From: an uncultured Candidatus Saccharibacteria bacterium
GTDB lineage: Bacteria; Patescibacteriota; Minisyncoccia; Minisyncoccales; JAGLUP01
NCBI GenBank assembly: GCA_964400775.1
Contig: CAYNVZ010000001.1
Span: 1 to 36,980, forward strand
Direction: 5' to 3'
Length of the DNA: 36,980 nt
In this document: positions 823 through 26,917 of the stretch, one piece after another
Layout of the letters: the number at the start of each line of letters is the position of its first letter
Position numbering within the stretch: position 1 is the stretch's first letter
Notes under the pieces: model-generated
What the model was told of the DNA's origin: nothing
The model's input: the letters and a program-made list of their open reading frames with translations, nothing else
Database searches by the model: none
Position numbers and translations under genes: made by a program

Positions 823-2646
823 TTAGTATAATAGTTTTTTTGCTTCTTGCCAAACTTGGGGCTGACCCTTTTTGGTTTTTAACCAATACCACCATTCAGT
901 TCCCCAGAGATAAAAGGTATCCAGCCCTGTCTTTTTAGCAAAAGCAATGTTTCTTTTAAATTGCTCTATATCCATTGTTTTTTTCTGTTCTTGTAAGCTC
1001 AGATCATAAAGTAAAACCGGACCCCATGGCTCTGCTTGAAGTTCAATACAAATTACTTTTTTATTAAACAATTTTTTAATAATTTGGGACTTTATCCAAT
1101 AAAAAGCTGGTGGAAAAGGATAATTAACATATCTACCAATTTCCTTTGCCCATACTTTTTTATACATTGTAATCCCCACTATATCTCCCAATCGAGCCGC
1201 TTTAAACCAAAAAGAACCCTCACCACTGTCTGAAATTATTATTGGACGCGAAGGGTCAAGTGACTTTACTAAATTAATTTCTTTTTTTACAAATTCCTCA
1301 TTAGTTTCCGGGCACTCACCAAAAGGAAAAAACGGCTCGTTTTCTACCTGCCAAGCCCATATTGTTTTATTATCTCTGTATCTGTTTATAATCTCTTTTA
1401 TGTATTTCAATAACTCTTGATTTTTAATTTTTAATTCTTCATTCTTAAGCCAGTTTGGCTCATGACACTCTGGCCATCGGCCGGTTTTTCTTCCAATAAC
1501 CAAAATCAGTTGAGCTCCTTTTTCCCCTGCTGTTTTTATTTGCCAATCTAAATCTTTAAAATTGTATTTTCCTTTTTCTATTTCAATTATATCCCAGTGG
1601 GTAAGCAATTTTATGTTTTTCACTTTTAAATCATCTAATAAAGCTAAATAGCATTCTTGCCAATTTAACCCTAAATTCTGCGCATGTTTTTGGGAAAAAT
1701 TAACTCCCCACATAATCTCTTCTGCCTCTGGAGGCGTCCCTCCAAAAGCTAAAATAAAAAGACCTAGCCAGATTAACAAAACAGCTATAATTTTTTGGAG
1801 AATAACCTTCCTGGAAATTTCTTCCTTTAAAATCCGGGGAAATTTAAAAGATAAGAAAACAGCAAAAACCAATAAAAAAACATATTGAACGCCTTCTAAG
1901 GCGTTAATAAAAGCTAAAAAGCCCAACGGCGCTAAAGCAATTGCCCAGCTTTCTAAAACAAAGGCAGTGCCTCCTATTGCCTGATTAAAAATAAAAATAC
2001 CTGCTGTTCTCTTCTGGAAGCTAATTCTTTTTTTAAAAATCTCCTGTCTTACCTCTGGTGTAAAAAGAAAACAAACTCCAGCTAAAAAAGCACCGAACCG
2101 CATCCAAATAAAACCAGACCAAAATGGCTGAGCCATATAAACAAACTTAGATAAGATAAATGTTAAAGAAAACAAAAAAGCAGATAAAACTGAAAGTTGA
2201 AAACTTTTAAAGGTAATAGATTTTTCTTTTTTAAAGGTAATTAAAATAGTCCCGGAGATTAAAAAAATAAAAGCTAAAATTTCAAAAAATCCCAGAGATT
2301 CCTTACCGCCAGAAAAAATATAAACAAGCCCTAAAGTAAACAAAGGTAAAGTCCCTCCAATAGCTGGAACCACCCGAGAAACCTCAAATTTTTGCAAGGC
2401 GCTATAAAAAACAAAAAGTGCAAGAATAGAAACAGCGCCAGCAATAAGGGCTAAAACTATCTGTTCTAATCCAGGAACTGACAAAAATCCAAAAGGAACA
2501 AGAACCAAAGCAAAAATTCCAAGTATGCCTACATAAAAAGAATAGGTATGAGGATTAGGAATAGAACCCTTCAAAAGATATTTATCAATTATAGAAACTA
2601 CTGCAAAAAGGAAATAAGAAATGATTGTAATTATCAGCCACAACAT
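823..2646 (-). CDS. Fusion protein: N-terminal polytopic EamA/DMT-like membrane domain (~300 aa) plus C-terminal clan GH-A (TIM-barrel, GH5/GH42-like) glycoside hydrolase domain
   Basis: 607-aa ORF. The first ~300 aa are about 10 hydrophobic helices. The C-terminal half has WQVENEPF (the NEP acid/base motif of clan GH-A), a possible nucleophile region ICIELQAEPWG, and the motif WDIIEIEKGKYNFKDLDWQI typical of GH-A N-terminal strands. Confidence 0.7.
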   Translation of the reverse strand: MLWLIITIISYFLFAVVSIIDKYLLKGSIPNPHTYSFYVGILGIFALVLVPFGFLSVPGLEQIVLALIAGAVSILALFVFYSALQKFEVSRVVPAIGGTLPLFTLGLVYIFSGGKESLGFFEILAFIFLISGTILITFKKEKSITFKSFQLSVLSAFLFSLTFILSKFVYMAQPFWSGFIWMRFGAFLAGVCFLFTPEVRQEIFKKRISFQKRTAGIFIFNQAIGGTAFVLESWAIALAPLGFLAFINALEGVQYVFLLVFAVFLSFKFPRILKEEISRKVILQKIIAVLLIWLGLFILAFGGTPPEAEEIMWGVNFSQKHAQNLGLNWQECYLALLDDLKVKNIKLLTHWDIIEIEKGKYNFKDLDWQIKTAGEKGAQLILVIGRKTGRWPECHEPNWLKNEELKIKNQELLKYIKEIINRYRDNKTIWAWQVENEPFFPFGECPETNEEFVKKEINLVKSLDPSRPIIISDSGEGSFWFKAARLGDIVGITMYKKVWAKEIGRYVNYPFPPAFYWIKSQIIKKLFNKKVICIELQAEPWGPVLLYDLSLQEQKKTMDIEQFKRNIAFAKKTGLDTFYLWGTEWWYWLKTKKGQPQVWQEAKKLLY

Positions 2647-4029: not shown

Positions 4030-4539
4030 ATGGAAAAGAAAGTAAAGACGGTTTTGGTTATATCTATTGTAGTTATAGGAATAGCGGTTTTGGGAATTGC
4101 AAGATTTTCTAGTTACACCGCCTTTCAGAAAACAATTATTAAAAGTATGGAAATAAAAGAGCCGATCCAAGTAAAGATCTTGACCCCAATAATAAAGAAC
4201 AAAACAGTTTATCCCGGAGAAATTATCTGGCTGGGAAAAATTAACATAACAAATATAGGTCCTGAAAAGATACCTATAGAGATCCAATTAACAAAAGAAG
4301 GCAAAATTGTTCCTGGTGAGCTTGTAGTGGATGAAGTAGGGCCTAACAGAACTGGATTTTTTGAAAAACCTGGAGAAATAGTGAAAAGAAACAGATTCTG
4401 GCTAGCCGGCAAGGAAACAAAAACAATTGTTTTAACATGGAAGGTTCCATGCGGTTATCCAGTTATGGAAAATTTCACCGCCAATTTAACAGTCCAGAGG
4501 CTTAGTGTCCCGCCTGAATGTAGTATTCATGGTTGTTAA
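4030..4539 (+). CDS. Hypothetical membrane-anchored or secreted protein with an Ig-like/CARDB-like beta domain and C-terminal cysteines
   Basis: 169-aa ORF with a strong SD, an N-terminal TM helix VLVISIVVIGIAVLGIA, a PGEIIWLGKINITNIGPEK segment typical of adhesion-type beta-sandwich domains, and a hairpin terminator downstream. Confidence 0.65.
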   Translation: MEKKVKTVLVISIVVIGIAVLGIARFSSYTAFQKTIIKSMEIKEPIQVKILTPIIKNKTVYPGEIIWLGKINITNIGPEKIPIEIQLTKEGKIVPGELVVDEVGPNRTGFFEKPGEIVKRNRFWLAGKETKTIVLTWKVPCGYPVMENFTANLTVQRLSVPPECSIHGC

Positions 4540-4544
4540 AAATT

Positions 4545-4575
4545 GACCCTTATTTTCAACAGAGGGTCTTTTTTT
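4545..4575. terminator. Hairpin plus T-run between convergent genes (4030..4539 and comEC)
   Basis: GACCCT (4545..4550), 12-nt loop, AGGGTC (4563..4568), then TTTTTTT (4569..4575). Confidence 0.45.
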
Positions 4576-4577
4576 AA

Positions 4578-6173
4578 TTAATAATCTAAAAATTTAAATT
4601 TTTGTCCTTCGGTTAATTGCCAGGTGATATAACCCAAAATTAAATAAGAAATCAAAAGCCAAATCCAGGATATTTTAAAAGCAAAAGAAGCAAAGGGAAC
4701 CTGAGAAAGAAAATCAATTATTTTTATTATATAGGTAAGCAACAACCAGCAAGGCCAGGACAAAATCCAGCCAAGCGATTGACAAAAAATACCAACAAGC
4801 CCAAAAACAAAACCAGAAATCATAACAAATGAAAGTATAGGAACAATTAAAATATTGCTAATTAATGAAACCAAAGATATATATCCAAAATTATAAATTA
4901 AAAGAGGCAAGGTAAAAATTTGGACAGACAGGGTCATAGAGGCAACATCTCTTAAAGAGAAGTATTCCGGATTAGGAATTTTGTTTAAGTAATCCTGAAA
5001 AATCGGCATTAAATAAATAATACCTAAAACAGCTAAAAAAGAGAGTTGAAAACCAATGTCTGATTTTAAAAGCAAAGGATTATTAATTAACATTATTGTG
5101 CCGGCAAAAACTACAGCCCTGGAAGAGGTTGAAAGCCGTCCTAATTTTTGTGCCAAGAGAACAAGCCCGGCCATAATCCCGGCTCTTACTGCTGAAACCG
5201 GAGCGCCAATCATAATAATAAAAAGAAAAAGCAAAATTATGGCAAAATAGAATGCCTGCCCTCGCCATAATCCCAGGGTAGTTCCTAACCACATTAGAAT
5301 TCCAGAAAGAACAACAATATGCATTCCGGATACGCAGGTAATATGACGTACACCAGTGATATTTAACTTATTCTTCCATTGTTTAGAAATTTTTCTTTTT
5401 TCTCCTAAAATTATAGCGGTTAAAATTGAGGATTGAGGCGGAGAAAGGTTTTGTTCAATATTTTTTCTCAACCTTTCTTTAAAACCCAAAATCTTACAAT
5501 AAAAGGTAGAAGTCAGGTCCCTACCCTTTCCTCTGCTTAATAGCTCTATTTTCGGCTTATACATTACTGAATAAATTCCATCTTTAGCCAAATAATCTTT
5601 ATAATTGAAATCTTCAAACCTTGGTGGCGTTTTTAATTTTCCAATAATTTTTAATTCATCTCCATATTGATATTCTGGATACTGCCTGGCTATTACCAAA
5701 ACCTTGCCTTTTAACCTCTTTTCACTTTCATATACCACTTTTTGGTTTTGAATTTTTTTTGGCTTTATCACCAATCTGGTATTGTTTTCTCTAATATCTG
5801 GCTCCTTTACCACTGTCCCTATCAAAACAACCTTCTCGTTTTGGTCATTCATTGCTGATAACTGACTGTTAGTAATTGCCAAATAAGCTATCTGATGCCG
5901 CCACATACCCAGGACAAGAAAAATCAAACAAAAACCAATGATTGGTGCTTTTGGCATCTTCAGATTTGAAAAAGAGGGAGGAAGAGAAATTAATAGAATG
6001 GCTAAAATTAAAACAACCAAGGTTAAAATCAAAGAAAAAACCGGTATTGACCGGGATTGTGCTAGTGTAGAAATAAAAAAAGAATCTATAAAAATTCCTA
6101 AAATAAAAGACAAACAGAAATACAAAAAAATTTTAGACACAGTCATTGGTCTTCTGTAAAATTTATCAAACAA
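4578..6173 (-). CDS. comEC: ComEC/Rec2-family DNA internalisation channel (DUF4131-like N-domain plus competence TM domain; no metallo-beta-lactamase domain)
   Basis: 531 aa. It has N-terminal TM helices, a soluble OB-like segment (KGKVLVIARQYPEYQYGDELKIIGKLKTP) and then a polytopic region with the ITGVRHITCVSGMHI motif typical of the ComEC competence domain. Confidence 0.85.
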   Translation of the reverse strand: MFDKFYRRPMTVSKIFLYFCLSFILGIFIDSFFISTLAQSRSIPVFSLILTLVVLILAILLISLPPSFSNLKMPKAPIIGFCLIFLVLGMWRHQIAYLAITNSQLSAMNDQNEKVVLIGTVVKEPDIRENNTRLVIKPKKIQNQKVVYESEKRLKGKVLVIARQYPEYQYGDELKIIGKLKTPPRFEDFNYKDYLAKDGIYSVMYKPKIELLSRGKGRDLTSTFYCKILGFKERLRKNIEQNLSPPQSSILTAIILGEKRKISKQWKNKLNITGVRHITCVSGMHIVVLSGILMWLGTTLGLWRGQAFYFAIILLFLFIIMIGAPVSAVRAGIMAGLVLLAQKLGRLSTSSRAVVFAGTIMLINNPLLLKSDIGFQLSFLAVLGIIYLMPIFQDYLNKIPNPEYFSLRDVASMTLSVQIFTLPLLIYNFGYISLVSLISNILIVPILSFVMISGFVFGLVGIFCQSLGWILSWPCWLLLTYIIKIIDFLSQVPFASFAFKISWIWLLISYLILGYITWQLTEGQKFKFLDY

Positions 6174-7011: not shown

Positions 7012-10000
7012 TTAAAATTTAGGAATTTTAAACATCTTCCGTTCTCGCACCTCCTGCTGCTTCCCAAGATTAAATTGGCGTTGAGGCCTAAGATATCCAA
7101 CTACCCTCGTGTAAACCTCACAGGGCTGTTTAATTGTACATTTGGGGCAATAAAAATGTTCTCCTGATAAATACCCATGAACAGGACAAATAGAAAAGGT
7201 GGGCGTCAGGGTTATATAAGGCAGATGAAAGTTCTCAAAAATTCTTTTTACTAAATTTTTGACTGTTTGAGTATCAGAAACTCGCTCTCCTAAAAACAAG
7301 TGAAGCACCGTACCGCCAGTATATTTACATTGTATTTCATCTTGAAGCTTTAAGGCCTCAAATAAATCATCTGTATAATTAACCGGCAGTTGGGTAGAGT
7401 TTGTGTAATAGGGTCTTTCTTTGGTGCCAGCAGTGATAATATCAGGATATCTTTCTTTATCCTTTAAACTCAATCTGAAGGCAGTACTCTCAGCCGGAGT
7501 AGCCTCTAAATTATAGATATTATTGGTCTCTTTTTGATATTTTACCAATCTATCTCTCATAAAGTCCATTACTTCCAAGGTAAACTTTATTCCTTCTTTA
7601 GAGGCAATATTTTCACCAAGAAAATTAAGGAGAGCTTCATTCATTCCTACCAAGCCAATAGTTGAAAAATGGTTAGCAAAATAAGTACCTCGGGCCTTCT
7701 TAATCCCTGATAGATAAAATTTTGAATAAGGATATAATCCTTTTTCAGAAAAATCCTCTATTGCCTTTCTTTTTATTTCCAAACTTTCTTTGGCTAAATC
7801 CATTAATCTTCCCAACCGTTCAAAAAATTCTTTTTTGGTTTTTGAAAGATAGCCAATTCTTGGTAAATTAATCGTAACTACCCCCACACTCCCTGTTAAG
7901 CTCCCACTACCGAACAATCCTCCTCCGCCGCGATTATGAAGTTCGTTTAGCTCAAGACGAAGCCTGCAACAATTGAAAGAAATTTGACCTAAAGAATGGA
8001 CAAAAAGATGATTCTTCTCTAATTCAATATCATAAAATTCCTGAGGAGTTTTAAAATTTTTTTCCTCGATTTTAACGATGGCAATAGGAGAAACTTTTTC
8101 TTTTCTTAACCGTTCCTCTATATTTCCTATTTTCTGAAGCTTTTTAATTGAATCTACAACTAGAATTTTTTCTCCAATTTTTATATCCTTTGCAAACTTC
8201 ATTTTGATTCCTTCAGGTGTATAAATAGCCATCGGATGTTTTAAAGAGAAAATGCATTTCTTTCCATCTCTAGTAATAATCTCTAACCCCTTTTTGTCTA
8301 TGATTTTTAAAAACCTTTTTACCGGCGACCATTCCAGTTTCAAATTTTGGGGATTGAGCGATAATATCTCTAAACTTCCTTCTTTTTTACATTCTGCCCA
8401 TCCCTCTTTATCAAAGTCCCCTATTTTATACTTCTCGGCTATTTCTTTAATTGAGGCCCTTTTTATATTTTTAGAATTCCTAATCAATAACTCTTCTTTT
8501 CCATCTATACACATACTTCTCACATCCTCCGGTTTCATATCCGAATTAATGTAATTGCTGAAATAATTTATTCCGTATTTTGCCGAGGCCTCAAAAACTC
8601 CATCAAAAGCTGGCTCATTCCAAGGAAAATCTTTAGTGATGTTTATGGTAGGAATGGGAAAATGAAAGGGCCTACCTGATTTATCTCCTTCTAAATACAC
8701 CTCGTAAAGCGCCTTATCAAATACCTTCATTTCTTCTTCAAATTCTTTGTAGGACTCTTTTTGGGGCTTACCTCCTATAATTACCGGTTGGTTAGCAAAA
8801 ACCGGAGAAGGCTTAAGATCAAGGGTAATATTGCTGAAAGGACTATTGTGAAAAACCAACAGCCCTGCTCCGCCAACAAAATTCTCTTGAGGAACATCAA
8901 CTGAAATATCATACTCAAACTCTCTGTCATAAATAAATTCTTCTTTATTTAAACATACCCGCGCCTCAAAATCGCCAACTCTATATTGTTTTCTGCCGTA
9001 TTGACTATTTTTTTTGAAAGCCCGAACAATATACTGGTCTCTCCACTTCTTATTAACCTTGCTGACCTTCTCAGTATAAACACTAAATCGAATATCATTT
9101 TGAGCTAAAAGTAGACATAAGCTCAAAGAAAGTTTCTTAGAGGTAGTAGAAAAATCATAATATTTATTATACTCGCTAGCATCTCCTTTAAATAAGGTTT
9201 TAATAAAGAGTCGCTGATATTTCTTTGAAAGTTCAAAAATATACCAGGGAATGACCTTATTAAAAGATAACGTGCCACAGCTTAGTCCAATAATCTCAGC
9301 TAATAATCCTTTTCCCGCAACCTTATAAACTTTTTTAGTTTTGTTCTTTTTTTGGGAATAACCTTTATTTTCTTGAATATATCCTAAGGAGTTTAATTCT
9401 TTTAAAACCTCAATTATTTCTTTCTTATTTTTTAAATCTGCCTGAGAGATATAAACAGGCACAGACAATCCCTTGTGCCCTTCACTTAGATACCAGGCAC
9501 AAAGCTTCACAAAATTCTCTAATACCTCTCCTTTCAAAAATCTTTTATGCCAAATATTGCTATTTTTTAATTTAAATTCAGCTCTATGGTCAAGACGAGC
9601 AAACTTTCTCCAAATATCATATCTAATAGTTTTTTTTCGAAGCCAATCCCTCCAAATTCCTTTATCTCTTATGCCAAAATCAATATAAAAAGGATGTATA
9701 GCTTGATATTGGTTTAAAATATTGCTTCTTATGACAGAAAGAGTGTGGGTAGGATTTATTTTTACAAAAACATTTTTTTGAAGTTGAGGAAATGCATCAA
9801 TCAATTCAATTAAATCTATCTCTCCTTTGCCTTTTGGAGCTTCTATCTTAGACAAAGCCAAAAAATGATTTTTTGAATTTAGATGCCTATAATCAGATGC
9901 GGTTTTAACATCTGAAACAGAAACTGCCTGAGGATTAAATTTGCCTTTAAAATCTTTAAATGAAAATAAAGAATGACCTGAAGAAATCTTTGCTTCGCCC

Positions 10001-11088
10001 CTGTTTGTCCTTACTTTTACAAATTTTGAATTTTTAGGAACCCTATGACGAATAAATGCTTTAATCCTTGCCCAAACCGCTTTTCCTTTTGAATTAAAAG
10101 AAAGAGCATAATAATCATCGTAATTTTCTATAGCAAAACTTTGAGGATGTTTCTCAATGATTCGATGCGGGTTTGTTTCAAATTGTTTATCAATTAGTTT
10201 TCCGATTTCAATAAATTTAATCCTTCCTTTATCTTTAATAACCACCAACTCGTCCCAGGCCAAGCTCTGAAATCCTGTTCTTGTGGGCACCGCCATATTG
10301 AATAAAAACTCCTGAAGCGCTTGTTTGACCTGCTGATAATTTAAATTGTCATAACGAATAAAAGGAGCAAGCAGGGTGTCAAAATTAGAAAAAGCGATAG
10401 CACCTGCTGCCTCGCCTTGAAGTGTAAAGATGAAATTAACCACCTGACCCAGAGCAGCTCTAAAGTGTTTAGCCGGTTTTGATTCTACCTTGCCCGGAAC
10501 ACCGCCAAAACCTTTCACCAAAAGGTCGTAAAGATCCCAACCCACGCAGTACGGGCCTAAGGTATCCAGGTTATGAAGGTGAAAATCTCCAGATTCGTTT
10601 GCCTCTCTTATTTCTTTTGGATAAATTTTATTCAGCCAGTATTTTTTAACAATATAGGAAACCCCATAGCGATTCAAACCTTGCAAAGAAAATGCCATAT
10701 TAGCGTTTTCCTGAACCTCCCAATCTAGTTTTTCTAAATACTGATCTATCCTCTCCACTGCCTCTTCAGAAACCACTGTTGATTCTCTTATTTTCCTTCT
10801 CTGTTCCCGGTATAAAATAAAGGCCTTGGCTGTCTCAACCAAGCCCTCTAAAATCAGAATTTCTTCAATAATGTCCTGGATCTGCTCAACACCTGGGACT
10901 TCCTCTTGTTTAAATCTTCTATTTAAAATTTCAACTACCTTATCAGAAATTCTTTTTGCTTTTTGTCCATCGCCTTGATTACAGGCAGTTAATGCCTTAA
11001 AAATTGCTTCAGTAATCTTTGACTGGTTAAAGTCAACAATAGAGCCATCTCTTTTTTTTATCTTAGAAATTTTGTTTTTTATCTCCAT
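7012..11088 (-). CDS. nrdD: Class III (anaerobic) ribonucleoside-triphosphate reductase with ATP-cone, interrupted by two inteins (704 aa after removal)
   Basis: N-terminal ATP-cone (KKRDGSIVDFNQSKITEAI), a C-terminal Zn site (CPVHG..CPKC) and the glycyl-radical motif TRVVGYLRP. At 1358 aa it is about twice the normal length. Two insertions have canonical intein ends (listed as separate features). Confidence 0.95.
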   Translation of the reverse strand: MEIKNKISKIKKRDGSIVDFNQSKITEAIFKALTACNQGDGQKAKRISDKVVEILNRRFKQEEVPGVEQIQDIIEEILILEGLVETAKAFILYREQRRKIRESTVVSEEAVERIDQYLEKLDWEVQENANMAFSLQGLNRYGVSYIVKKYWLNKIYPKEIREANESGDFHLHNLDTLGPYCVGWDLYDLLVKGFGGVPGKVESKPAKHFRAALGQVVNFIFTLQGEAAGAIAFSNFDTLLAPFIRYDNLNYQQVKQALQEFLFNMAVPTRTGFQSLAWDELVVIKDKGRIKFIEIGKLIDKQFETNPHRIIEKHPQSFAIENYDDYYALSFNSKGKAVWARIKAFIRHRVPKNSKFVKVRTNRGEAKISSGHSLFSFKDFKGKFNPQAVSVSDVKTASDYRHLNSKNHFLALSKIEAPKGKGEIDLIELIDAFPQLQKNVFVKINPTHTLSVIRSNILNQYQAIHPFYIDFGIRDKGIWRDWLRKKTIRYDIWRKFARLDHRAEFKLKNSNIWHKRFLKGEVLENFVKLCAWYLSEGHKGLSVPVYISQADLKNKKEIIEVLKELNSLGYIQENKGYSQKKNKTKKVYKVAGKGLLAEIIGLSCGTLSFNKVIPWYIFELSKKYQRLFIKTLFKGDASEYNKYYDFSTTSKKLSLSLCLLLAQNDIRFSVYTEKVSKVNKKWRDQYIVRAFKKNSQYGRKQYRVGDFEARVCLNKEEFIYDREFEYDISVDVPQENFVGGAGLLVFHNSPFSNITLDLKPSPVFANQPVIIGGKPQKESYKEFEEEMKVFDKALYEVYLEGDKSGRPFHFPIPTINITKDFPWNEPAFDGVFEASAKYGINYFSNYINSDMKPEDVRSMCIDGKEELLIRNSKNIKRASIKEIAEKYKIGDFDKEGWAECKKEGSLEILSLNPQNLKLEWSPVKRFLKIIDKKGLEIITRDGKKCIFSLKHPMAIYTPEGIKMKFAKDIKIGEKILVVDSIKKLQKIGNIEERLRKEKVSPIAIVKIEEKNFKTPQEFYDIELEKNHLFVHSLGQISFNCCRLRLELNELHNRGGGGLFGSGSLTGSVGVVTINLPRIGYLSKTKKEFFERLGRLMDLAKESLEIKRKAIEDFSEKGLYPYSKFYLSGIKKARGTYFANHFSTIGLVGMNEALLNFLGENIASKEGIKFTLEVMDFMRDRLVKYQKETNNIYNLEATPAESTAFRLSLKDKERYPDIITAGTKERPYYTNSTQLPVNYTDDLFEALKLQDEIQCKYTGGTVLHLFLGERVSDTQTVKNLVKRIFENFHLPYITLTPTFSICPVHGYLSGEHFYCPKCTIKQPCEVYTRVVGYLRPQRQFNLGKQQEVRERKMFKIPKF
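7972..8511 (-). mobile_element. Intein 2 of NrdD (aa 860-1039, 180 aa), mini-intein without an endonuclease domain
   Basis: The junction VRSM|CIDGKEELLI....HLFVHSLGQISFN|CCRLRL restores RSMCCRLRL. Cys1, terminal Asn and Cys+1 are present, with a block B-like SLKH. The penultimate residue is Phe rather than His. Confidence 0.75.
8845..10266 (-). mobile_element. Intein 1 of NrdD (aa 275-748, 474 aa) with a LAGLIDADG homing-endonuclease domain
   Basis: The extein junction GFQ|SLAWDELVVIKDKG....GAGLLVFHN|SPFSNITLD restores the conserved G.Q.PF.NITLD motif. Ser1, C-terminal HN and Ser+1 are present, as is block B SSGH. The two LAGLIDADG-like motifs are LCAWYLSEGHKG and FIKTLFKGDASE. Confidence 0.85.
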
Positions 11089-11171: not shown

Positions 11172-11208
11172 GACAAAAATAAAAGAGGTTATTACAGCTT
11201 ACCTCTTT
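11172..11208 (-). terminator. Rho-independent terminator downstream of ftsZ
   Basis: The minus strand reads AAAGAGGT, 11-nt loop, ACCTCTTT, followed by TATTTTTGTC. Confidence 0.55.
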
Positions 11209-11288: not shown

Positions 11289-12224
11289 CTATTGGGTAAA
11301 ACCTGTGGCAATAATAGTTACCTTTATTTCTCCTTTTTTTAACTTTTTGTCTTGGACTGCTCCAAAAATTACCTTTGCCTTTGGATGAATATGCTGGGTA
11401 ATTAGTTTGGCTATTTCATTTACTTCTATTAAAGAAAGATCTGCTCCTCCGCTTACGTTAAATAAAACTCCTTTTGCTCCTTGAATAGAAAAATCAACCA
11501 AAGGACAACTGATGGCCTTATTAGCTGCCTCAATTGCTCTTTTTTCTCCTTTGGCTCTTCCCATTCCAAACAATGCCTGACCAGAATTTTTCATAATGGC
11601 TTTAAGGTCAGCAAAATCAACATTAATAATGCCTGGCAAAACAATCAAATCAGAAATTCCCTGAACCGCCTGTCTTAACACTTCGTCACAAATCCAAAAA
11701 CTCTGTAAAAGCGAGGTCTCTTGGTCAATCAAGCCAAGCAATTTATTATTTGGAATAACTAATAAAGTGTCCACTCTATTTTTTAAATTATCTATTCCTT
11801 GCTCAGCAAGCTTCATACGCCACATACCTTCAAAGCTAAACGGCTTGGTAACTACAGCCACAGTTAAAATTCCTAATTTTTTAGCAATCTCAGCCACAAC
11901 AGGCCCGGCTCCTGTGCCTGTCCCTCCACCTGCTCCATAAGTGACAAATATCATATCTGAATCTTTTAAAATATCTTGAATCTCTTTCCTTTGCTCTTCA
12001 GCTGCTCGTCTGCCAATGTCTGGATCCATTCCTGTGCCTAATCCTTTGGTTAGTTCTCTACCAATCTGAAGCCGATAATGCGCGCGGGTATTTTTAAGGT
12101 CTTGGACATCAGTATTCAAGGCAATCAAATCCACGCCCTGAATATGGCATTTCATCATCCGGGTTATAGCATTACAGCCAGAACCACCCACGCCTATTAC
12201 TTTAATTTTTACATTTTTCTTCAT
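11289..12224 (-). CDS. ftsZ: Cell division protein FtsZ, core-only (311 aa, no C-terminal linker or tail)
   Basis: IKVIGVGGSGCNAI, tubulin signature GGGTGTGAGPVVAEIAK, and an end at ..KVTIIATGFTQ-TAG. The ATG overlaps the hepT stop (ATGA at 12221..12224). Confidence 0.95.
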   Translation of the reverse strand: MKKNVKIKVIGVGGSGCNAITRMMKCHIQGVDLIALNTDVQDLKNTRAHYRLQIGRELTKGLGTGMDPDIGRRAAEEQRKEIQDILKDSDMIFVTYGAGGGTGTGAGPVVAEIAKKLGILTVAVVTKPFSFEGMWRMKLAEQGIDNLKNRVDTLLVIPNNKLLGLIDQETSLLQSFWICDEVLRQAVQGISDLIVLPGIINVDFADLKAIMKNSGQALFGMGRAKGEKRAIEAANKAISCPLVDFSIQGAKGVLFNVSGGADLSLIEVNEIAKLITQHIHPKAKVIFGAVQDKKLKKGEIKVTIIATGFTQ

Positions 12225-12646
12225 AAATTTTTTGTGTACTTATTTGCGATTTCTAAAAATTCTTTAAAATCCTCTGTATCATTCTGTAAAATTTCATAAA
12301 CCTGTTTCTCGTCTAAAGAGGGATAATTATGAATAGCTCTATTTCTAAAACCAATCATTTTTTGAATTTTTTCTGAAAATTCTTTATTTATTATCTTTGC
12401 CTCAAATAATTTTACAGGAATTTTTCCATAACTTTCAACTTTTATCCCTTTGTCTGCCAAAATATATTGTCCAATATCTAAAATTGCCTCAATCCCTGCC
12501 ACCAAACCAAATGTTGTCGCCCAGACATTTTCAATATTGTTTTTTAAATCATCTAAGCTAAGCCTTTGGAGTTTTTTCAGTCCTTGGTAGATTTTAAATA
12601 AATTATTTATTTTATCCTGAAGTTGTTCTTTTATTATTTTTGTCAT
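12221..12646 (-). CDS. hepT: HEPN-domain (DUF86/HepT-like) putative RNase toxin
   Basis: 141 aa with an R-x4-H HEPN motif in GFRNRAIHNY. It lies downstream of, and overlaps by 4 nt, a minimal nucleotidyltransferase gene, which is the classic MntA-HepT arrangement. Confidence 0.8.
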   Translation of the reverse strand: MTKIIKEQLQDKINNLFKIYQGLKKLQRLSLDDLKNNIENVWATTFGLVAGIEAILDIGQYILADKGIKVESYGKIPVKLFEAKIINKEFSEKIQKMIGFRNRAIHNYPSLDEKQVYEILQNDTEDFKEFLEIANKYTKNL

Positions 12647-13056
12647 AAGGCCTTTATCCTCAAATCTAAAAATTGATTATAGATATTACTTAAATGCAGA
12701 TATTCTTCATATTCACGAAGGGTTTGGATTTGAAATAAAATTCTATCTGCATTGCTTCTAATAAAAAGTGGTTTTCCTTCTAAAACCACTGTTTGCTTTA
12801 AGAGAGGAGAAGAAACATTCAGGTTAACAATGTTTATTTCTTTTTTAGGATAAATTCCTGAGAAGACCTCAATCAACTTTCCTTCTATTTTTAAATAATC
12901 TTTTTCCTTTACCTTTTTGTCAAACAAAACCGCAATATCAATATCGCTCTCTTTATGAGAGGTCCCTTTTGCCTCAGACCCAAACAAATAAGCCAAAACC
13001 ACTTTGTTTTGTTTAAAAATCTTATTTAATTCTTTTTGATATTTCTTTAATTCCAT
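12643..13056 (-). CDS. mntA: Minimal nucleotidyltransferase (MNT/MntA-like) putative antitoxin
   Basis: 137 aa with the pol-beta-type NTase motif LFGSEAKGTSHKESDIDIAVLF (GS..G..(x)n..DxD). An ATGA overlap joins it to hepT at 12643..12646. Confidence 0.85.
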   Translation of the reverse strand: MELKKYQKELNKIFKQNKVVLAYLFGSEAKGTSHKESDIDIAVLFDKKVKEKDYLKIEGKLIEVFSGIYPKKEINIVNLNVSSPLLKQTVVLEGKPLFIRSNADRILFQIQTLREYEEYLHLSNIYNQFLDLRIKAL

Positions 13057-13065
13057 ATTTACTTC

Positions 13066-13094
13066 ATCCTACCAAATTAAAAACCATAAATCAA
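13066..13094 (-). promoter_or_regulatory. Sigma70-like promoter directly upstream of mntA (near-leaderless geometry)
   Basis: The minus strand reads TTGATT (13094..13089), 17 nt, TAGGAT (13071..13066), then only 9 nt to the ATG at 13056. Confidence 0.35.
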
Positions 13095-13095
13095 C

Positions 13096-13120
13096 AAAAA
13101 AGAGCTTTTCAGCTCTTTTT
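13096..13120 (-). terminator. Rho-independent terminator downstream of the 13150..13800 gene, separating it from mntA-hepT-ftsZ
   Basis: AAAAGAGC, 6-nt loop, GCTCTTTT, with a T-run following on the minus strand (an A-run on the plus strand at 13096..13100). Confidence 0.6.
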
Positions 13121-13149: not shown

Positions 13150-13800
13150 TCACTCCAAAAACCGAAAAGTGGAAAGCATTTGGTTGAAGGCCTTTTCTAA
13201 TTCTTTAAATTTCTCCGTATCCTTCATTCCAAATACACCTAAATAATAAAGATTCTCTTTGTGGTTTATTTTAACTCTTATATATTTTACTACACAATCA
13301 ATTTTTACTCCGTGATAGAACGTCTTTTCTTTTTCTAACTCGCATCTTTCCGCTTCATAGCCAGATAAAAATATTTTTTCACATTTCGCTTCACTTCCTA
13401 ATCCATAATCTTTGTTTATTACCAATTGAACACATTCATCAGTGCCCGCGACAGAATAACCAAATAAATACATCCAATCTACCGGAGAATGCTCAAGAAC
13501 TATCCAGTCCTTTGGATACCTTATCTCAAATCCATACTCCTCATTTCTATAGATTTTCCAATCCTATAAAATCTCATCAGGAAGCAGGTCAGCAGTTTCA
13601 TCTTTGACTGTTGTTTCTGGCTCAATTGTTATTTCTGGTACTGTTTCCAATGTCTTCATTTTTTCTCTTAATAACTGCGCTTGCCAGATTAAAATTCCTG
13701 AATAAATAGAAAACGCGAGCATAATGACTGTAATACCCGCGCGCACAGAAATTTGTTTATTAAAAAATGAAGGTAATTTAGGTTGGGCTTGGTTATTCAT
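13150..13800 (-). pseudogene. Membrane-anchored orphan protein split by one in-frame TAG (13564..13566): TM-anchor ORF 13564..13800 plus globular-domain ORF 13150..13563
   Basis: The two track ORFs (13564..13800 and 13150..13473) are in the same frame. The 90 nt between the TAG and the first ATG translate without stops to DWKIYRNEEYGFEIRYPKDWIVLEHSPVDW, a motif that normally follows an N-terminal TM anchor in CPR surface proteins. Confidence 0.6.
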
Positions 13801-13802
13801 TT

Positions 13803-15020
13803 TCAGGGAATAAAGACCTTAAATATTTTTTTTATTTTAGCTATAATTCCCCTTCCTATATCAGAAAAATATCCACCGTCTTTTGATTCAGCCCCCCTTA
13901 AAACAAGCCCGCAAACCGTGGCTAAAGCTGGATCTTGTTCTATACCAACAATTCCTTTAGGAATTCCAATCTTGGCTGGAAGCTTCAATTCTCTTTTTGC
14001 TAACTCAACAATCTTTGGCAACTTTGCGCCGCCTCCGGTTAAAACCACGCCAGCAGGCAATAATCCCTGACGAGAAATTTTTTTCAATTCTTTGTTTACT
14101 AAGTCAAGAATTTCTTCCACCCTGGCCTCAATAATTTCTGCTAACATCTTTTTAGAAAAAATTAAAGGTTCCTTCAACTGAAAAATTTTTATCTTCTCTT
14201 TCTTATTATTTTTTGGGACCATACAAGAACCAAATTCTCTTTTTATTCTCTCGGCAATATCAATTTCAGTTCTTAAGCAAATAGCAATATCATTTGTAAT
14301 ATTGGCAGAGCCCAAAGGAAACACAGCCGTATGAATTAAATCTCCTTCCTCAAATACCACCAAGCTGGTAGTACCTGCTCCAATATCTATCAAGGCCACT
14401 CCTAACTCTTTTTGTTGAGGACTAAGTACTGCCTCGGCTGCAGCTAAAGATGAAAAAATAATATCATTTATCTGAAGACCAGAATCTAAAACTGCCTGGG
14501 TTAAATTCTTAAGATAAGGCGAAAAAACACAAAGGGTAAGTATCTCCACCTCTAAACGCAGTCCCCTCATATCTAATGGCTCTTTTACCCTGGTCTGGCC
14601 ATCTATAATAAATTCCTTAGGAAAGGTCTCTAAAATTTCGTTATTAAGAGGTTTATTTACTACCGCCTCTGCGGATTGAATTACCCTGTCAATGTCCTCT
14701 TGAGAAATTCTTTGGTCAGCGCGAGAAACAGAGATCAATCCATGGCTAGAAGCAACAAAAAGGTGATTGCCTCCAATATTGACATAAATATCTCTAAGCT
14801 CTTTTTTCAATGGCTCTGCAATCTGAGCTATTAAGCTCTGTAGACTTTCTGAAACCAATTCTGGATTAATAACAACTCCCTTTCTTACGCCTGAAGAAGG
14901 GCCACTGACAATATCTAAAAGCTCAATAACATCTGGCTCTCCTTGATTTTTTTGAGCCACCAATGCCTTAATAGTATCAGTACCTATATCTATGCCAGTA
15001 ATTATATGGCTTTTGGCCAT
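13803..15020 (-). CDS. ftsA: Cell division protein FtsA (actin-like ATPase with C-terminal amphipathic membrane helix)
   Basis: HIITGIDIGTDTIKALVA phosphate-1 motif, ALIDIGAGTTSLVVF and VVLTGGGAKLP, with a C-terminal IIAKIKKIFKVF. The ORF is open to a TTG at 15053, but the ATG at 15020 (MAKSHIITGIDIGT) fits the family N-terminus. Confidence 0.9.
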   Translation of the reverse strand: MAKSHIITGIDIGTDTIKALVAQKNQGEPDVIELLDIVSGPSSGVRKGVVINPELVSESLQSLIAQIAEPLKKELRDIYVNIGGNHLFVASSHGLISVSRADQRISQEDIDRVIQSAEAVVNKPLNNEILETFPKEFIIDGQTRVKEPLDMRGLRLEVEILTLCVFSPYLKNLTQAVLDSGLQINDIIFSSLAAAEAVLSPQQKELGVALIDIGAGTTSLVVFEEGDLIHTAVFPLGSANITNDIAICLRTEIDIAERIKREFGSCMVPKNNKKEKIKIFQLKEPLIFSKKMLAEIIEARVEEILDLVNKELKKISRQGLLPAGVVLTGGGAKLPKIVELAKRELKLPAKIGIPKGIVGIEQDPALATVCGLVLRGAESKDGGYFSDIGRGIIAKIKKIFKVFIP

Positions 15021-16540: not shown

Positions 16541-16580
16541 TCAGCCCCCACCACTTTTCACAGAAAAGTGGTGGGGCTGA
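16541..16580. repeat. GC-rich palindromic element, copy 1 (core CCCCACCACTTTTC-NNN-GAAAAGTGGTGGGG)
   Basis: TCAGCCCCCACCACTTTTC-ACA-GAAAAGTGGTGGGGCTGA, an 18-bp stem with one bulged C, in the rpsU/yqeY intergenic region. Confidence 0.85.
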
Positions 16581-18619: not shown

Positions 18620-18660
18620 TCACCCCCCACCACTTTTCGCAGAAAAGTGGTGGGGGGTGA
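18620..18660. repeat. GC-rich palindromic element, copy 2
   Basis: TCACCCCCCACCACTTTTC-GCA-GAAAAGTGGTGGGGGGTGA, a perfect 19-bp stem, between the lepB stop and the hisS start. Confidence 0.85.
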
Positions 18661-26880: not shown

Positions 26881-26917
26881 ATCCCCCACCACTTTTCTGC
26901 GAAAAGTGGTGGGGGAT
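26881..26917. repeat. GC-rich palindromic element, copy 3
   Basis: ATCCCCCACCACTTTTC-TGC-GAAAAGTGGTGGGGGAT, a perfect 17-bp stem, between the convergent kinase gene and tRNA-Leu. Confidence 0.85.

What the first reader, a model, noticed from the sequence alone, without database searches (positions are those of the whole stretch)
11289..13094. MntA/HepT (NTase/HEPN) toxin-antitoxin pair inserted between ftsA and ftsZ and translationally coupled to ftsZ
Seen in sequence:
- The order on the minus strand is ftsA (13803..15020), split membrane gene (13150..13800), hairpin terminator (13096..13120), promoter-like TTGATT-17-TAGGAT (13066..13094), mntA, hepT, ftsZ, terminator (11172..11208).
- mntA/hepT overlap by ATGA (12643..12646), and hepT/ftsZ overlap by ATGA (12221..12224).
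- I see no room for an independent ftsZ promoter outside hepT coding sequence.

Established knowledge: ftsA and ftsZ are normally adjacent in the dcw cluster. MNT/HEPN pairs are type VII TA or defence modules in which the HEPN RNase is neutralised by the NTase.

Inference: the essential division gene appears to be the third cistron of a TA operon. This would tie FtsZ synthesis to TA autoregulation, or make the TA module unlosable by addiction through genetic linkage. I am not aware of a description of a TA pair translationally coupled to ftsZ.
Basis: partly seen in the sequence, partly recalled or inferred. Interest (0 to 1): 0.8.

Follow-up and report, generated by a model that had tools for sequence, protein, structure and literature searches.

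The report
Toxin-antitoxin cassette lodged in ftsZ leader
A horizontally acquired MntA/HepT toxin-antitoxin pair sits between the cell-division gene ftsZ and the promoter that serves ftsZ in a related genome, and other relatives carry different toxin-antitoxin pairs at the same spot, so this looks like an undescribed insertion hot spot, not a new kind of system.

Summary
On the minus strand the order is ftsA, a membrane-protein gene broken by a stop codon, a hairpin, a promoter-like site, mntA, hepT and ftsZ. Both gene junctions are ATGA overlaps. The two small proteins pass NCBIfam equivalog cut-offs for type VII MntA and HepT, and both catalytic motifs are intact. At least five other metagenome assemblies contain the same arrangement, so it is not a chimera.

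The interpretation needs revising. The hairpin and promoter upstream of mntA are orthologous to an element that lies 36 nt upstream of ftsZ in a relative with no toxin-antitoxin (TA) pair. In another relative the same element precedes an unrelated Fic pair. The cassette therefore landed in the ftsZ leader, downstream of a resident promoter; ftsZ did not join a TA operon.

Five of 32 related genomes carry seven TA pairs of six families in the ftsA-ftsZ interval. Only one or two modules occur in about 300 flanking gene junctions. Some inserts are flanked by duplications of the target sequence. Contents change quickly between close relatives, which argues against the idea that linkage makes the pair unlosable.

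Co-transcription and translational coupling with ftsZ are likely but inferred. The TA pair is an ordinary family member. The recurrent slot at ftsZ appears to be undescribed.

The parts
13803..15020 (-). ftsA, the upstream conserved flank of the variable interval
   Evidence: Pfam FtsA 2.8e-36 and SHS2_FTSA 1.2e-19. The start is set by relatives that begin MAK(S/N)...
13150..13800 (-). Membrane/secreted-protein gene of a family specific to Patescibacteria (the CPR group). It has an N-terminal TM helix, a WKxYxNEEYGFEIxYP motif and a C-terminus FNQMLSTFRFLE. An in-frame TAG at 13564..13566 interrupts it, so it is probably a pseudogene.
   Evidence: Intact homologues are L013 4771..5454 (227 aa), L001 2806..4026 and L014 508..2394. 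The 78-aa plus 107-aa split is the same in L009-L011 and L102. No Pfam or NCBIfam hit.
13097..13120 (-). Intrinsic-terminator-like hairpin (AAAAAGAGCU-GAAA-AGCUCUUUUU followed by U-rich sequence) ending the upstream transcription unit
   Evidence: RNA fold -12.5 kcal/mol, z = -3.8. Structurally conserved in L001 (-11.1) and L014 (-13.2).
13066..13094 (-). Resident promoter-like element: -35 TTGATT, 17-nt spacer, extended -10 TGgTAGGAT. It ends 9 nt before the mntA ATG, which implies a leaderless or near-leaderless mRNA.
   Evidence: It matches L001 at 30 of 32 positions (upstream of the Fic pair) and L014 at 28 of 32 (36 nt upstream of ftsZ, no TA pair). Function is inferred.
12643..13056 (-). 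mntA, the type VII antitoxin (minimal nucleotidyltransferase). The G26-S27-x10-D38-x-D40 motif is intact.
   Evidence: NCBIfam MntA_antitoxin 84.7 bits against a cut-off of 60. Pfam Polbeta and NTP_transf_2. PDB 5YEP_A at 5e-10, with the motif aligned.
12221..12646 (-). hepT, the type VII toxin (HEPN RNase). The R101-N-x3-H106-x-Y108 motif is intact, including the Tyr that MntA AMPylates in characterised systems.
   Evidence: NCBIfam HepT_toxin 92.6 bits against a cut-off of 60. Pfam PF01934 5e-23. PDB 5YEP_B at 1e-8, with the motif aligned. Motif definition from PMC13000451.
11289..12224 (-). ftsZ (311 aa). Its start overlaps the hepT stop codon (ATGA), and no Shine-Dalgarno sequence lies upstream.
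   Evidence: TIGR00065 407 bits. Pfam Tubulin plus FtsZ_C. Junction sequence.
12409..12438 (-). Candidate internal promoter inside hepT (TTGAAA-18-TAAAAT), about 185 nt upstream of ftsZ. It is unverified.
   Evidence: 10 of 12 matches, but hits in the region are at chance frequency. The full two-hexamer match is present only in the window's copy, not in four homologous hepT genes.
11172..11208 (-). Weak hairpin plus T-run downstream of ftsZ; a possible end of the transcription unit
   Evidence: Fold -7.8 kcal/mol, z = -1.3, not distinguishable from shuffled sequence.

Best explanation
A mobile MntA/HepT (type VII) toxin-antitoxin cassette has been inserted into the 5' leader of ftsZ in a Parcubacteria (Patescibacteria) genome. 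It lies downstream of a terminator-promoter unit that belongs to the locus and upstream of the ftsZ start codon.

How it most likely works:
- Transcription starts a few nucleotides before the mntA ATG, which sits at the same resident start position as in relatives, and runs through mntA, hepT and ftsZ as one mRNA.
- Ribosomes finishing mntA re-initiate on hepT, and those finishing hepT re-initiate on ftsZ, through the two ATGA overlaps. This mirrors the ftsA-ftsZ ATGA overlap seen in TA-free relatives.
- MntA neutralises the HepT RNase by AMPylating Tyr108, next to the R-x4-H active site.

The insertion is one instance of a wider pattern. In this clade the ftsA-ftsZ interval, and above all the position just upstream of ftsZ, is a recombination hot spot. 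Unrelated TA cassettes are gained, swapped and lost there. Some insertions carry short duplications of the target sequence.

The cassette gains constitutive expression from a division-gene promoter. For the host, ftsZ expression survives because the cassette is co-oriented, has no terminator and ends tightly on the ftsZ start.

Shown here: protein identity, foreign origin, a real and population-wide junction, a resident promoter-like element, and hot-spot enrichment.

Inferred: promoter activity, a single transcript, re-initiation, toxin activity and any fitness effect.
For: Identity of the pair:
- NCBIfam equivalogs above their cut-offs and Pfam hits.
- The best PDB matches are the characterised S. 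oneidensis and A. flos-aquae MntA/HepT pairs, with GSx10DxD and RNxxxHxY aligned. Motif definitions come from PMC13000451.

Real junction: the same order occurs in L009-L012 and L102 from five different samples.

Foreign origin:
- GC is 27-30% across the pair, against about 36-44% in ftsZ and 34-40% in ftsA.
- HepT homologues of 74-80% identity lie in unrelated contexts in other Patescibacteria: frr|rseP, DUF4177|LysM-M23, beside HicBA and a transposase, and PolX|TM protein.

Resident promoter:
- About 95 nt, from the pre-hairpin sequence through hairpin, -35 and extended -10 to the ATG, align between the window, L001 (Fic pair downstream) and L014 (a 5-codon mini-ORF and then ftsZ). Similarity stops right after the ATG.
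- The FtsZ identities group the four genomes as (L014,(window,(L013,L001))), so the element predates the cassettes.

Hot spot:
- Of 32 clade loci, 18 have ftsA abutting ftsZ and 5 carry TA pairs in the interval. These are MntA/HepT, HicBA, MazE-like/PIN, DUF4258/DUF2283, a small ORF plus Fic (twice) and HEPN/MNT.
- Only one TA pair, plus one possible AbiEii-type NTase, was found among 69 accessory ORFs in about 297 kb of flanks. Fisher p is about 3e-5 to 1e-3.
- None of 36 more distant loci has a TA family upstream of ftsZ.
- There is never room for a promoter between the last TA gene and ftsZ; the gaps are -4, 12, 19, 20 and 36 nt.

Insertion signatures:
- L003: a 26-nt direct repeat (25 of 26) of the ftsA 3' end flanks the 986-bp insert.
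- L001: duplicated ftsA 3' end, duplicated promoter and three copies of the TM-gene 5' end.
- L093: 171-nt repeats flank a homologous MntA/HepT cassette.

Coupling is ancestral..CC ATGA.. forms the ftsA/ftsZ junction in TA-free relatives.

A -10-like box 6-10 nt before the ATG is common in this window, and Shine-Dalgarno sequences are rare.
Against: - There are no transcript data. Promoter, terminator read-through and re-initiation are all inferred from sequence.
- Promoter-like matches in this AT-rich DNA occur at chance frequency. The exact motif occurs only twice in the window, against 1.04 expected.
- Only one TA-free genome (L014) shows the promoter directly upstream of ftsZ. Its 5-codon mini-ORF could be the scar of a lost cassette, so the promoter may originally have arrived with a cassette.
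- Similar near-consensus promoters precede antitoxin genes elsewhere: L095 matches at 26 of 32, and see L097 and L013.
- A promoter-like site inside hepT (12409..12438) is better in this copy than in homologues. It could supply ftsZ mRNA independently.
- The hot-spot statistics use crude ORF calls, an approximate count of junctions and phylogenetically related genomes. The two Fic pairs may not be independent events.
Confidence: 0.7

Rival explanations
1. ftsZ has been recruited as the third cistron of a TA operon, so TA autoregulation sets FtsZ levels, and the TA pair is made unlosable by its linkage to an essential gene.
For: There is no terminator and no free promoter space between mntA, hepT and ftsZ, and both junctions are ATGA overlaps. 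S. oneidensis MntA binds and represses its own promoter (PMC4621449). [quoted passage not shown]
Against: The promoter is shared with a TA-free relative and with a relative carrying an unrelated cassette, so it is not TA-specific. Repression by MntA in the one studied case was only 1.6-fold. Cassettes at this site turn over between genomes with 83-93% FtsZ identity, empty sites exist (L004, L014), and a 90%-identical hepT is already inactivated by a stop codon. That is the opposite of an unlosable module.
Confidence: 0.12
2. The TA pair is only a neighbour. ftsZ is expressed mainly from an internal promoter in hepT, or by read-through from ftsA, and is translated independently on its A-rich, unstructured leader. 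The overlap then has no regulatory consequence.
For: TTGAAA-18-TAAAAT lies inside hepT and is complete only in this copy. Most genes in the window lack a Shine-Dalgarno sequence, so SD-independent initiation is normal here. The hairpin at 13097..13120 has an AU-rich stem and may leak. In four other genomes the last TA gene ends 12-36 nt before ftsZ without an overlap.
Against: The internal site is statistically indistinguishable from background. ATGA overlaps with ftsZ are also the state in TA-free relatives, which suggests that ftsZ translation in this clade habitually depends on the preceding ORF. No cassette at this site brings room for a separate promoter.
Confidence: 0.2
3. The cassettes at ftsZ are domesticated. 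They link cell division to stress or phage infection, for example by releasing the toxin and shutting off FtsZ synthesis together when transcription of the unit collapses. The site is selected for this function and is not merely permissive.
For: At least six TA families recur at one position and are strongly enriched over the flanks. All are co-oriented and end tightly on ftsZ.
Against: Many close relatives lack any cassette (18 of 32 have ftsA abutting ftsZ). The families have unrelated toxin mechanisms. Decay is visible: a decayed RelE-like gene in L013 and a hepT nonsense codon in L103. No conserved regulatory feature was seen beyond the resident promoter.
Confidence: 0.08
4. The junction is an assembly artefact (a chimeric contig).
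For: The GC content drops across the pair.
Against: The identical gene order occurs in contigs from at least five other samples, assembled by different pipelines.
Confidence: 0.01

Closest known systems
Type VII MntA/HepT toxin-antitoxin system (S. oneidensis SO_3165/SO_3166, PDB 5YEP/6M6U; A. flos-aquae 7AE2)
   Same: The antitoxin gene comes first, with a 4-nt overlap. The proteins are about 137 and 141 aa. The GSx10DxD and R-polar-x3-H-x-Y motifs are present. HMM scores reach equivalog level.
   Different: The relationship to the characterised pairs is distant (E about 1e-8 to 1e-10). There is no private promoter or leader: the pair sits behind a locus-resident promoter and its toxin gene overlaps ftsZ. 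Activity has not been tested.
S. aureus / B. subtilis / Listeria mazEF upstream of, and co-transcribed with, the sigB operon
   Same: A TA pair forms the promoter-proximal part of a transcription unit that continues into important housekeeping or regulatory genes (PMC3920265).
   Different: That arrangement is conserved across Firmicutes, is separated from sigB by a weak terminator and involves one TA family. Here the downstream gene is ftsZ, the junction is a translational overlap, and the occupant changes between close relatives.
Integration hot spots and defence islands between conserved core genes (general concept, from my own knowledge)
   Same: Conserved flanks (ftsA and the TM gene on one side, ftsZ on the other) enclose variable, horizontally acquired, conflict-type cargo. 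Occupied and empty sites occur among relatives.
   Different: The site lies inside the division operon, in the leader of an essential gene. The cargo is restricted to small co-oriented TA pairs. No integrase, tRNA or transposase was seen at the site.
Integron expression platform (a fixed promoter driving swappable promoterless cassettes, often TA cassettes in chromosomal integrons)
   Same: A fixed promoter and start position have different cassettes downstream in different genomes.
   Different: No integrase was found in the window and attC sites were not examined. The flanking duplications (26-171 nt) point to homologous or Campbell-type recombination instead.

Membership tests
Type VII MntA/HepT TA system | Antitoxin is a minimal nucleotidyltransferase with the GSx10DxD catalytic motif | tested here: met
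   G26-S27-x10-D38-I-D40 is read from the translation and aligns to the S. oneidensis MntA motif. NCBIfam NF047752 scores 84.7 bits against a cut-off of 60.
Type VII MntA/HepT TA system | Toxin is a HEPN (DUF86/HepT) protein with an R-polar-x3-H RNase motif and the adjacent target Tyr | tested here: met
   R101-N-R-A-I-H106-N-Y108 aligns to the S. oneidensis HepT motif RNIAVHDY. NF047751 scores 92.6 bits against a cut-off of 60. PF01934 scores 5e-23.
Type VII MntA/HepT TA system | Adjacent co-oriented genes, antitoxin first, with overlapping stop and start codons | tested here: met
   The ATGA overlap lies at 12643..12646. All homologous cassettes examined have the same layout.
Type VII MntA/HepT TA system | HepT is growth-inhibitory, and MntA neutralises it by oligo-AMPylation of the Tyr | not testable with these tools
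   This needs expression, mutagenesis (Y108F; D38E/D40E) and mass spectrometry.
Single mntA-hepT-ftsZ transcription unit with translational coupling | No terminator and no promoter-sized non-coding gap between the three ORFs; stop and start codons overlap | tested here: met
   The only terminator-like hits between 11289 and 13056 lie inside coding sequence. One is inside mntA (12767..12790, with three G-C pairs, reported on both strands). The other is a 5-pair stem inside ftsZ (12133..12150).
Single mntA-hepT-ftsZ transcription unit with translational coupling | One mRNA spans the three genes, and ftsZ translation depends on hepT translation | not testable with these tools
   No transcriptome or reporter data are available.
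Integration hot spot between core genes | Conserved flanks with variable, unrelated cargo in related genomes, including empty sites | tested here: met
   Six TA families occur in 5 of 32 loci, and 18 loci have ftsA abutting ftsZ.
Integration hot spot between core genes | Cargo enriched at the site relative to other junctions of the same genomes | tested here: met
   5 of 32 loci against 1-2 in about 300 junctions; Fisher p is 3e-5 to 1e-3. The test is rough and has no phylogenetic correction.
Integron | IntI-type tyrosine recombinase next to the cassette array | tested here: not met
   The 28 window ORFs scanned against Pfam (18 of them of at least 80 aa outside the ftsA-ftsZ region) gave only housekeeping families and no recombinase. 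The four ORFs of at least 80 aa beyond 32700 were not scanned.
Integron | attC recombination sites flanking each cassette | not tested
   No attC model was run. The flanking repeats that were seen are duplications of the host target, not attC-like.

The most novel reading that the evidence does not exclude
In this Parcubacteria clade the ftsZ leader may be a genuine cassette-exchange platform. It would consist of a fixed promoter, a fixed leaderless start codon and an essential downstream gene that guarantees the unit stays switched on. Unrelated TA cassettes would be swapped into it by homology-driven recombination that leaves target duplications, with no integrase involved. FtsZ synthesis would then physically depend on translation through whichever TA pair is resident, so cell division would be wired to the state of the TA module.
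Probability: 0.2. Interest if true: 0.7.

Novelty: new variant of a known kind. Interest (0 to 1): 0.5.

Why it matters
FtsZ levels are normally tightly controlled, and ftsA-ftsZ is among the most conserved gene adjacencies in bacteria. Here a toxin gene overlaps the ftsZ start codon, and at least six unrelated TA families have used the same slot in related genomes. This shows that the division operon of these reduced-genome Patescibacteria tolerates, and perhaps attracts, selfish or defensive cassettes.

The locus offers a natural system for three questions:
- How do promoterless or leaderless cassettes exploit the promoters of essential genes?
- How is expression of the downstream essential gene preserved: by overlap and re-initiation in the window, or by duplication of the upstream region in L093?
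- How do TA cassettes move without dedicated recombinases in organisms that depend on DNA uptake?

If coupling is real, it also predicts that toxin and FtsZ are made at linked rates. That may be tolerable because the antitoxin here is an enzyme.

Tried and rejected
- **Chimeric assembly.** Rejected. At least five other assemblies from different samples show the same order.
- **TAG recoding as the cause of the split membrane gene.** Rejected. ftsZ ends at a TAG at the C-terminus conserved across the clade, and long ORFs contain no TAG. The split is a nonsense mutation fixed in the population.
- **Promoter brought in by the cassette.** Considered because L095 (26 of 32 matches) and L097 have similar sites upstream of mntA. 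Rejected for this locus, because the whole 95-nt hairpin-promoter unit is shared with L001 (different cassette) and L014 (no cassette).
- **Generic promoter motif search in the window.** Uninformative: 2 hits against 1.04 expected. The consensus promoter scan was also at chance level.
- **Direct repeats flanking the window's own cassette.** Only a 27-nt, 85% match was found (12258..12284 and 13199..13225). The hepT copy codes the family's conserved EDFKEF segment, so the match is probably chance.
- **PADLOC.** MntA hits only the candidate NTase models PDC-S09, and HepT hits nothing, so there is no defence-system assignment.
- **Literature.** Searches for TA with ftsZ, dcw or Patescibacteria found no description of a TA pair upstream of ftsZ. 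The nearest item is the TA-like YlmD/YlmE pair in the ftsZ operon of Streptomyces (PMC5943314), which is unrelated.
- **More distant relatives (FtsZ 47-59% identity).** No TA family lies upstream of ftsZ.
- **Resources.** The single genome-contig scan and the single metagenome-contig scan were both used, so a wider survey was not possible.
Full report
**1.

- On the minus strand the ORFs are ftsA (13803..15020), one reading frame 13150..13800 broken by an in-frame TAG at 13564..13566, mntA (12643..13056), hepT (12221..12646) and ftsZ (11289..12224).
- Both junctions are ATGA overlaps.
- The hairpin at 13097..13120 folds at -12.5 kcal/mol (z = -3.8) and is followed by a T-run.
- TTGATT-17-TAGGAT lies at 13066..13094 and ends 9 nt before the mntA ATG.
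- The hairpin after ftsZ is weak.

**2. The two small proteins are a standard type VII pair**

- Pfam gives Polbeta and NTP_transf_2 for the first protein and HepT-like for the second.
- NCBIfam equivalog models MntA_antitoxin and HepT_toxin score 84.7 and 92.6 bits against cut-offs of 60.
- The best solved-structure matches are the characterised S. oneidensis and A. flos-aquae pairs.
- The defining motifs described in PMC13000451 are intact. MntA has G26-S27-x10-D38-x-D40. HepT has R101-N-x3-H106-x-Y108, including the Tyr that MntA AMPylates in the studied systems.
- Toxicity and neutralisation remain inferred.

**3. The junction is real and fixed in the population**

Contigs from at least five other samples carry the same order, including the split membrane gene.

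**4. The cassette is foreign and mobile**

- GC falls to 27-30% across the pair, against roughly 36-44% in ftsZ and 34-40% in ftsA.
- HepT homologues of 74-80% identity are common in other Patescibacteria. They always follow an NTase gene with a 4-nt overlap, but their contexts are unrelated:
  - between frr and rseP;
  - between a DUF4177 gene and a LysM/M23 peptidase gene;
  - next to HicBA and a transposase;
  - after PolX.
- A 90%-identical copy on a short contig (L103) is followed after 4 nt by a membrane-protein gene of the same family, not by ftsZ. It carries an in-frame TAG at codon 10.

**5. The promoter belongs to the locus, not to the TA pair**

- About 95 nt align between the window, L001 (FtsZ 86% identical) and L014 (83%). 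The aligned stretch covers the pre-hairpin sequence, the hairpin, the -35, the extended -10 and the ATG.
- Similarity ends immediately after the ATG.
- Downstream of the ATG, L001 has an unrelated 71-aa ORF plus a Fic gene. L014 has only a 5-codon mini-ORF, and ftsZ starts 36 nt after the -10.
- FtsZ identities give the grouping (L014,(window,(L013,L001))). The element therefore predates the present cassettes and has survived at least two changes of occupant.
- L013 has HicBA behind a different promoter-like site.
- The cassette thus sits in the ftsZ leader. Whether the promoter originally arrived with an earlier cassette cannot be decided.

**6. The ftsA-ftsZ interval is a hot spot**

Among 32 non-redundant loci with FtsZ at least 62% identical and both genes visible:

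| State of the ftsA-ftsZ interval | Loci |
|---|---|
| ftsA abuts ftsZ (often ..CC ATGA..) | 18 |
| Gap of 70-200 nt | 5 |
| Insert larger than 900 bp | 9 |

Five of the nine inserts contain TA modules:

| Locus | TA content of the interval |
|---|---|
| window | MntA/HepT |
| L013 | HicB/HicA, plus a decayed RelE-like pair (my reading) |
| L001 | DUF4258/DUF2283 (putative; the DUF4258 score is just below its cut-off), MazE-like/PIN, a small ORF plus Fic, and an orphan HicB-like gene |
| L002 | The same Fic pair as L001 |
| L003 | HEPN (PF05168) followed by an MNT gene; the GSx10DxD motif was read from the sequence |

- The two Fic proteins are 85% identical although FtsZ is only about 69% identical between those genomes. 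This suggests transfer between lineages into the same slot.
- The last TA gene always ends -4 to 36 nt from the ftsZ ATG.

Controls:
- Among 69 accessory small ORFs in about 297 kb of flanks, Pfam found one MntA/HepT pair (L018, just upstream of ftsA) and at most one other NTase-type hit. A rough Fisher test gives p between 3e-5 and 1e-3.
- No TA family lies upstream of ftsZ in 36 more distant loci.
- The rest of the 37-kb window is housekeeping.

**7. Traces of the insertion mechanism**

- In L003 the 986-bp insert is flanked by a 26-nt direct repeat (25 of 26) of the ftsA 3' end.
- L001 contains a second copy of the ftsA 3' end, a duplicated promoter and three copies of the membrane-gene 5' end.
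- A homologous MntA/HepT cassette in L093 is flanked by 171-nt repeats that duplicate the downstream gene's whole upstream region.
- These duplications fit homologous or Campbell-type integration and serial accretion, not a dedicated recombinase. None was seen in the window.
- The window's own cassette shows no convincing flanking repeat.

**8. How it probably works**

- Transcription from the resident promoter would give a near-leaderless mntA-hepT-ftsZ mRNA.
- A -10 box 6-10 nt before the ATG is common in this window, and Shine-Dalgarno sites are rare.
- The ATGA overlaps allow termination and re-initiation, which reproduces the ancestral ftsA-ftsZ coupling.
- An enzymatic antitoxin may make high co-expression of the toxin tolerable.
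- All of this is inference.
- One promoter-like site inside hepT (12409..12438) is complete only in this copy. It could feed ftsZ independently.

**9.

- The operon layout is as described. However, 'ftsZ joined a TA operon' reverses the likely history.
- 'Unlosable by linkage' conflicts with the fast turnover, the empty sites and the decaying copies.
- Autoregulation by MntA was weak (1.6-fold) in the one studied case (PMC4621449).

**10. Comparison with known systems, and novelty**

- The pair is an ordinary member of the MntA/HepT family.
- TA pairs co-transcribed with downstream genes are known, for example mazEF-sigB (PMC3920265). Hot spots between core genes are a familiar concept.
- Four literature searches found no description of a TA pair in the ftsZ leader, or of a multi-family TA slot at ftsA-ftsZ.
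- I therefore rate it a new variant of a known kind, of moderate interest.

**11. Limits**

- No expression data are available.
- Only four genomes belong to the closest subclade.
- Gene calls for the statistics are crude.

Noticed in passing
window 13150..13800 (TAG at 13564..13566): The membrane/secreted-protein gene between ftsA and mntA carries one in-frame TAG in a linker region. The same split (78 aa plus 107 aa) appears in five other assemblies. Homologues in L002 (TAA ten codons before the end) and L003 (only a remnant left) are also damaged, whereas L013, L001 and L014 have intact copies.
   Followed up: partly
window 11289..12224, and all clade FtsZ (alignment A1): FtsZ is only 311 aa and ends two residues after the FtsZ_C domain. 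It has no C-terminal linker or conserved C-terminal peptide, the usual FtsA-binding tail, although FtsA is present. All six clade FtsZ proteins aligned are 311-314 aa.
   Followed up: no
window 7012..11088: The anaerobic ribonucleotide reductase NrdD is 1358 aa, against 719 aa in L001. Pfam finds an intein splicing domain at residues 878-1033. A second insertion of about 480 aa follows '..PTRTGFQS'. This suggests two inteins.
   Followed up: no
L093 3431..3601 and 4431..4601: 171-nt direct repeats (94% identical, spaced 1000 nt) flank a 79%-identical MntA/HepT cassette. The repeats duplicate the frr 3' end, the intergenic region and the first codons of the downstream M50 peptidase gene. The cassette therefore sits exactly at that gene's start codon, with the upstream region regenerated.
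   Followed up: partly
L003 4991..5016 and 5977..6002: A 26-nt direct repeat (25 of 26) of the ftsA 3' end flanks the 986-bp insert (membrane-gene remnant, HEPN, MNT). This marks an insertion into an ancestral ftsA/ftsZ ATGA junction.
   Followed up: yes
L001 600..6100: The ftsA-ftsZ interval is 5.2 kb and is built from repeated pieces: a second copy of the ftsA 3' end (1600..1635), a duplicated promoter (1637..1678 and 2285..2326), and three copies of the membrane-gene 5' end (starting at 2175, 2805 and 4832). TA cassettes are interleaved with these pieces.
   Followed up: partly
L103 169..632: A hepT copy 90% identical to the window's has TAG where homologues have CAG (codon 10); the source database translated it as Gln. 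After 4 nt it is followed by the start of a membrane-family gene (MNNQAKSKIFS..), so the same cassette occupies a different junction in a close relative.
   Followed up: partly
L099/L100, about 100 nt upstream of mntA (near L099 3480..3525): A remnant encoding ..IFNQILFTFRFLE* lies just upstream of a 77%-identical MntA/HepT cassette. This is the C-terminus of the same membrane-protein family that precedes mntA in the window, and 36 of 42 nt are identical. A membrane protein gene follows hepT after 23 nt. The cassette may travel with, or target, genes of this family.
   Followed up: no
all loci (833 kb), e.g. L001 1639, L013 4212, L097 40: The pattern TTGA[TC]T-N13-15-TGnTA[AGT][AG]AT gave 16 hits. 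Eleven of them (five distinct sites once the window's duplicate contigs are removed) lie 7-10 nt before the ATG of the first gene of a TA cassette. Near-consensus promoters with a leaderless start seem typical of TA cassettes in these genomes.
   Followed up: partly
window 16548..16574, 18627..18653, 26886..26912: There are three copies of a GC-rich perfect palindrome, CCACCACTTTTC-NNN-GAAAAGTGGTGG, where none is expected by chance. They lie in intergenic positions next to gene ends. This could be a repeated terminator or a REP-like element.
   Followed up: no
window 12258..12284 and 13199..13225: A 27-nt direct repeat (85% identical, spaced 941 nt) lies in the 3' end of hepT and the 3' end of the membrane gene. 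It brackets the cassette in the way the repeats do in L003 and L093, but it is short and AT-rich and partly explained by a conserved HepT motif, so it may be chance.
   Followed up: partly
L018 3577..4395: A second, distantly related MntA/HepT pair (31% identity to the window's HepT) lies about 390 nt upstream of ftsA in another clade member. It was the only TA pair found in the flanks of the 32 loci.
   Followed up: no
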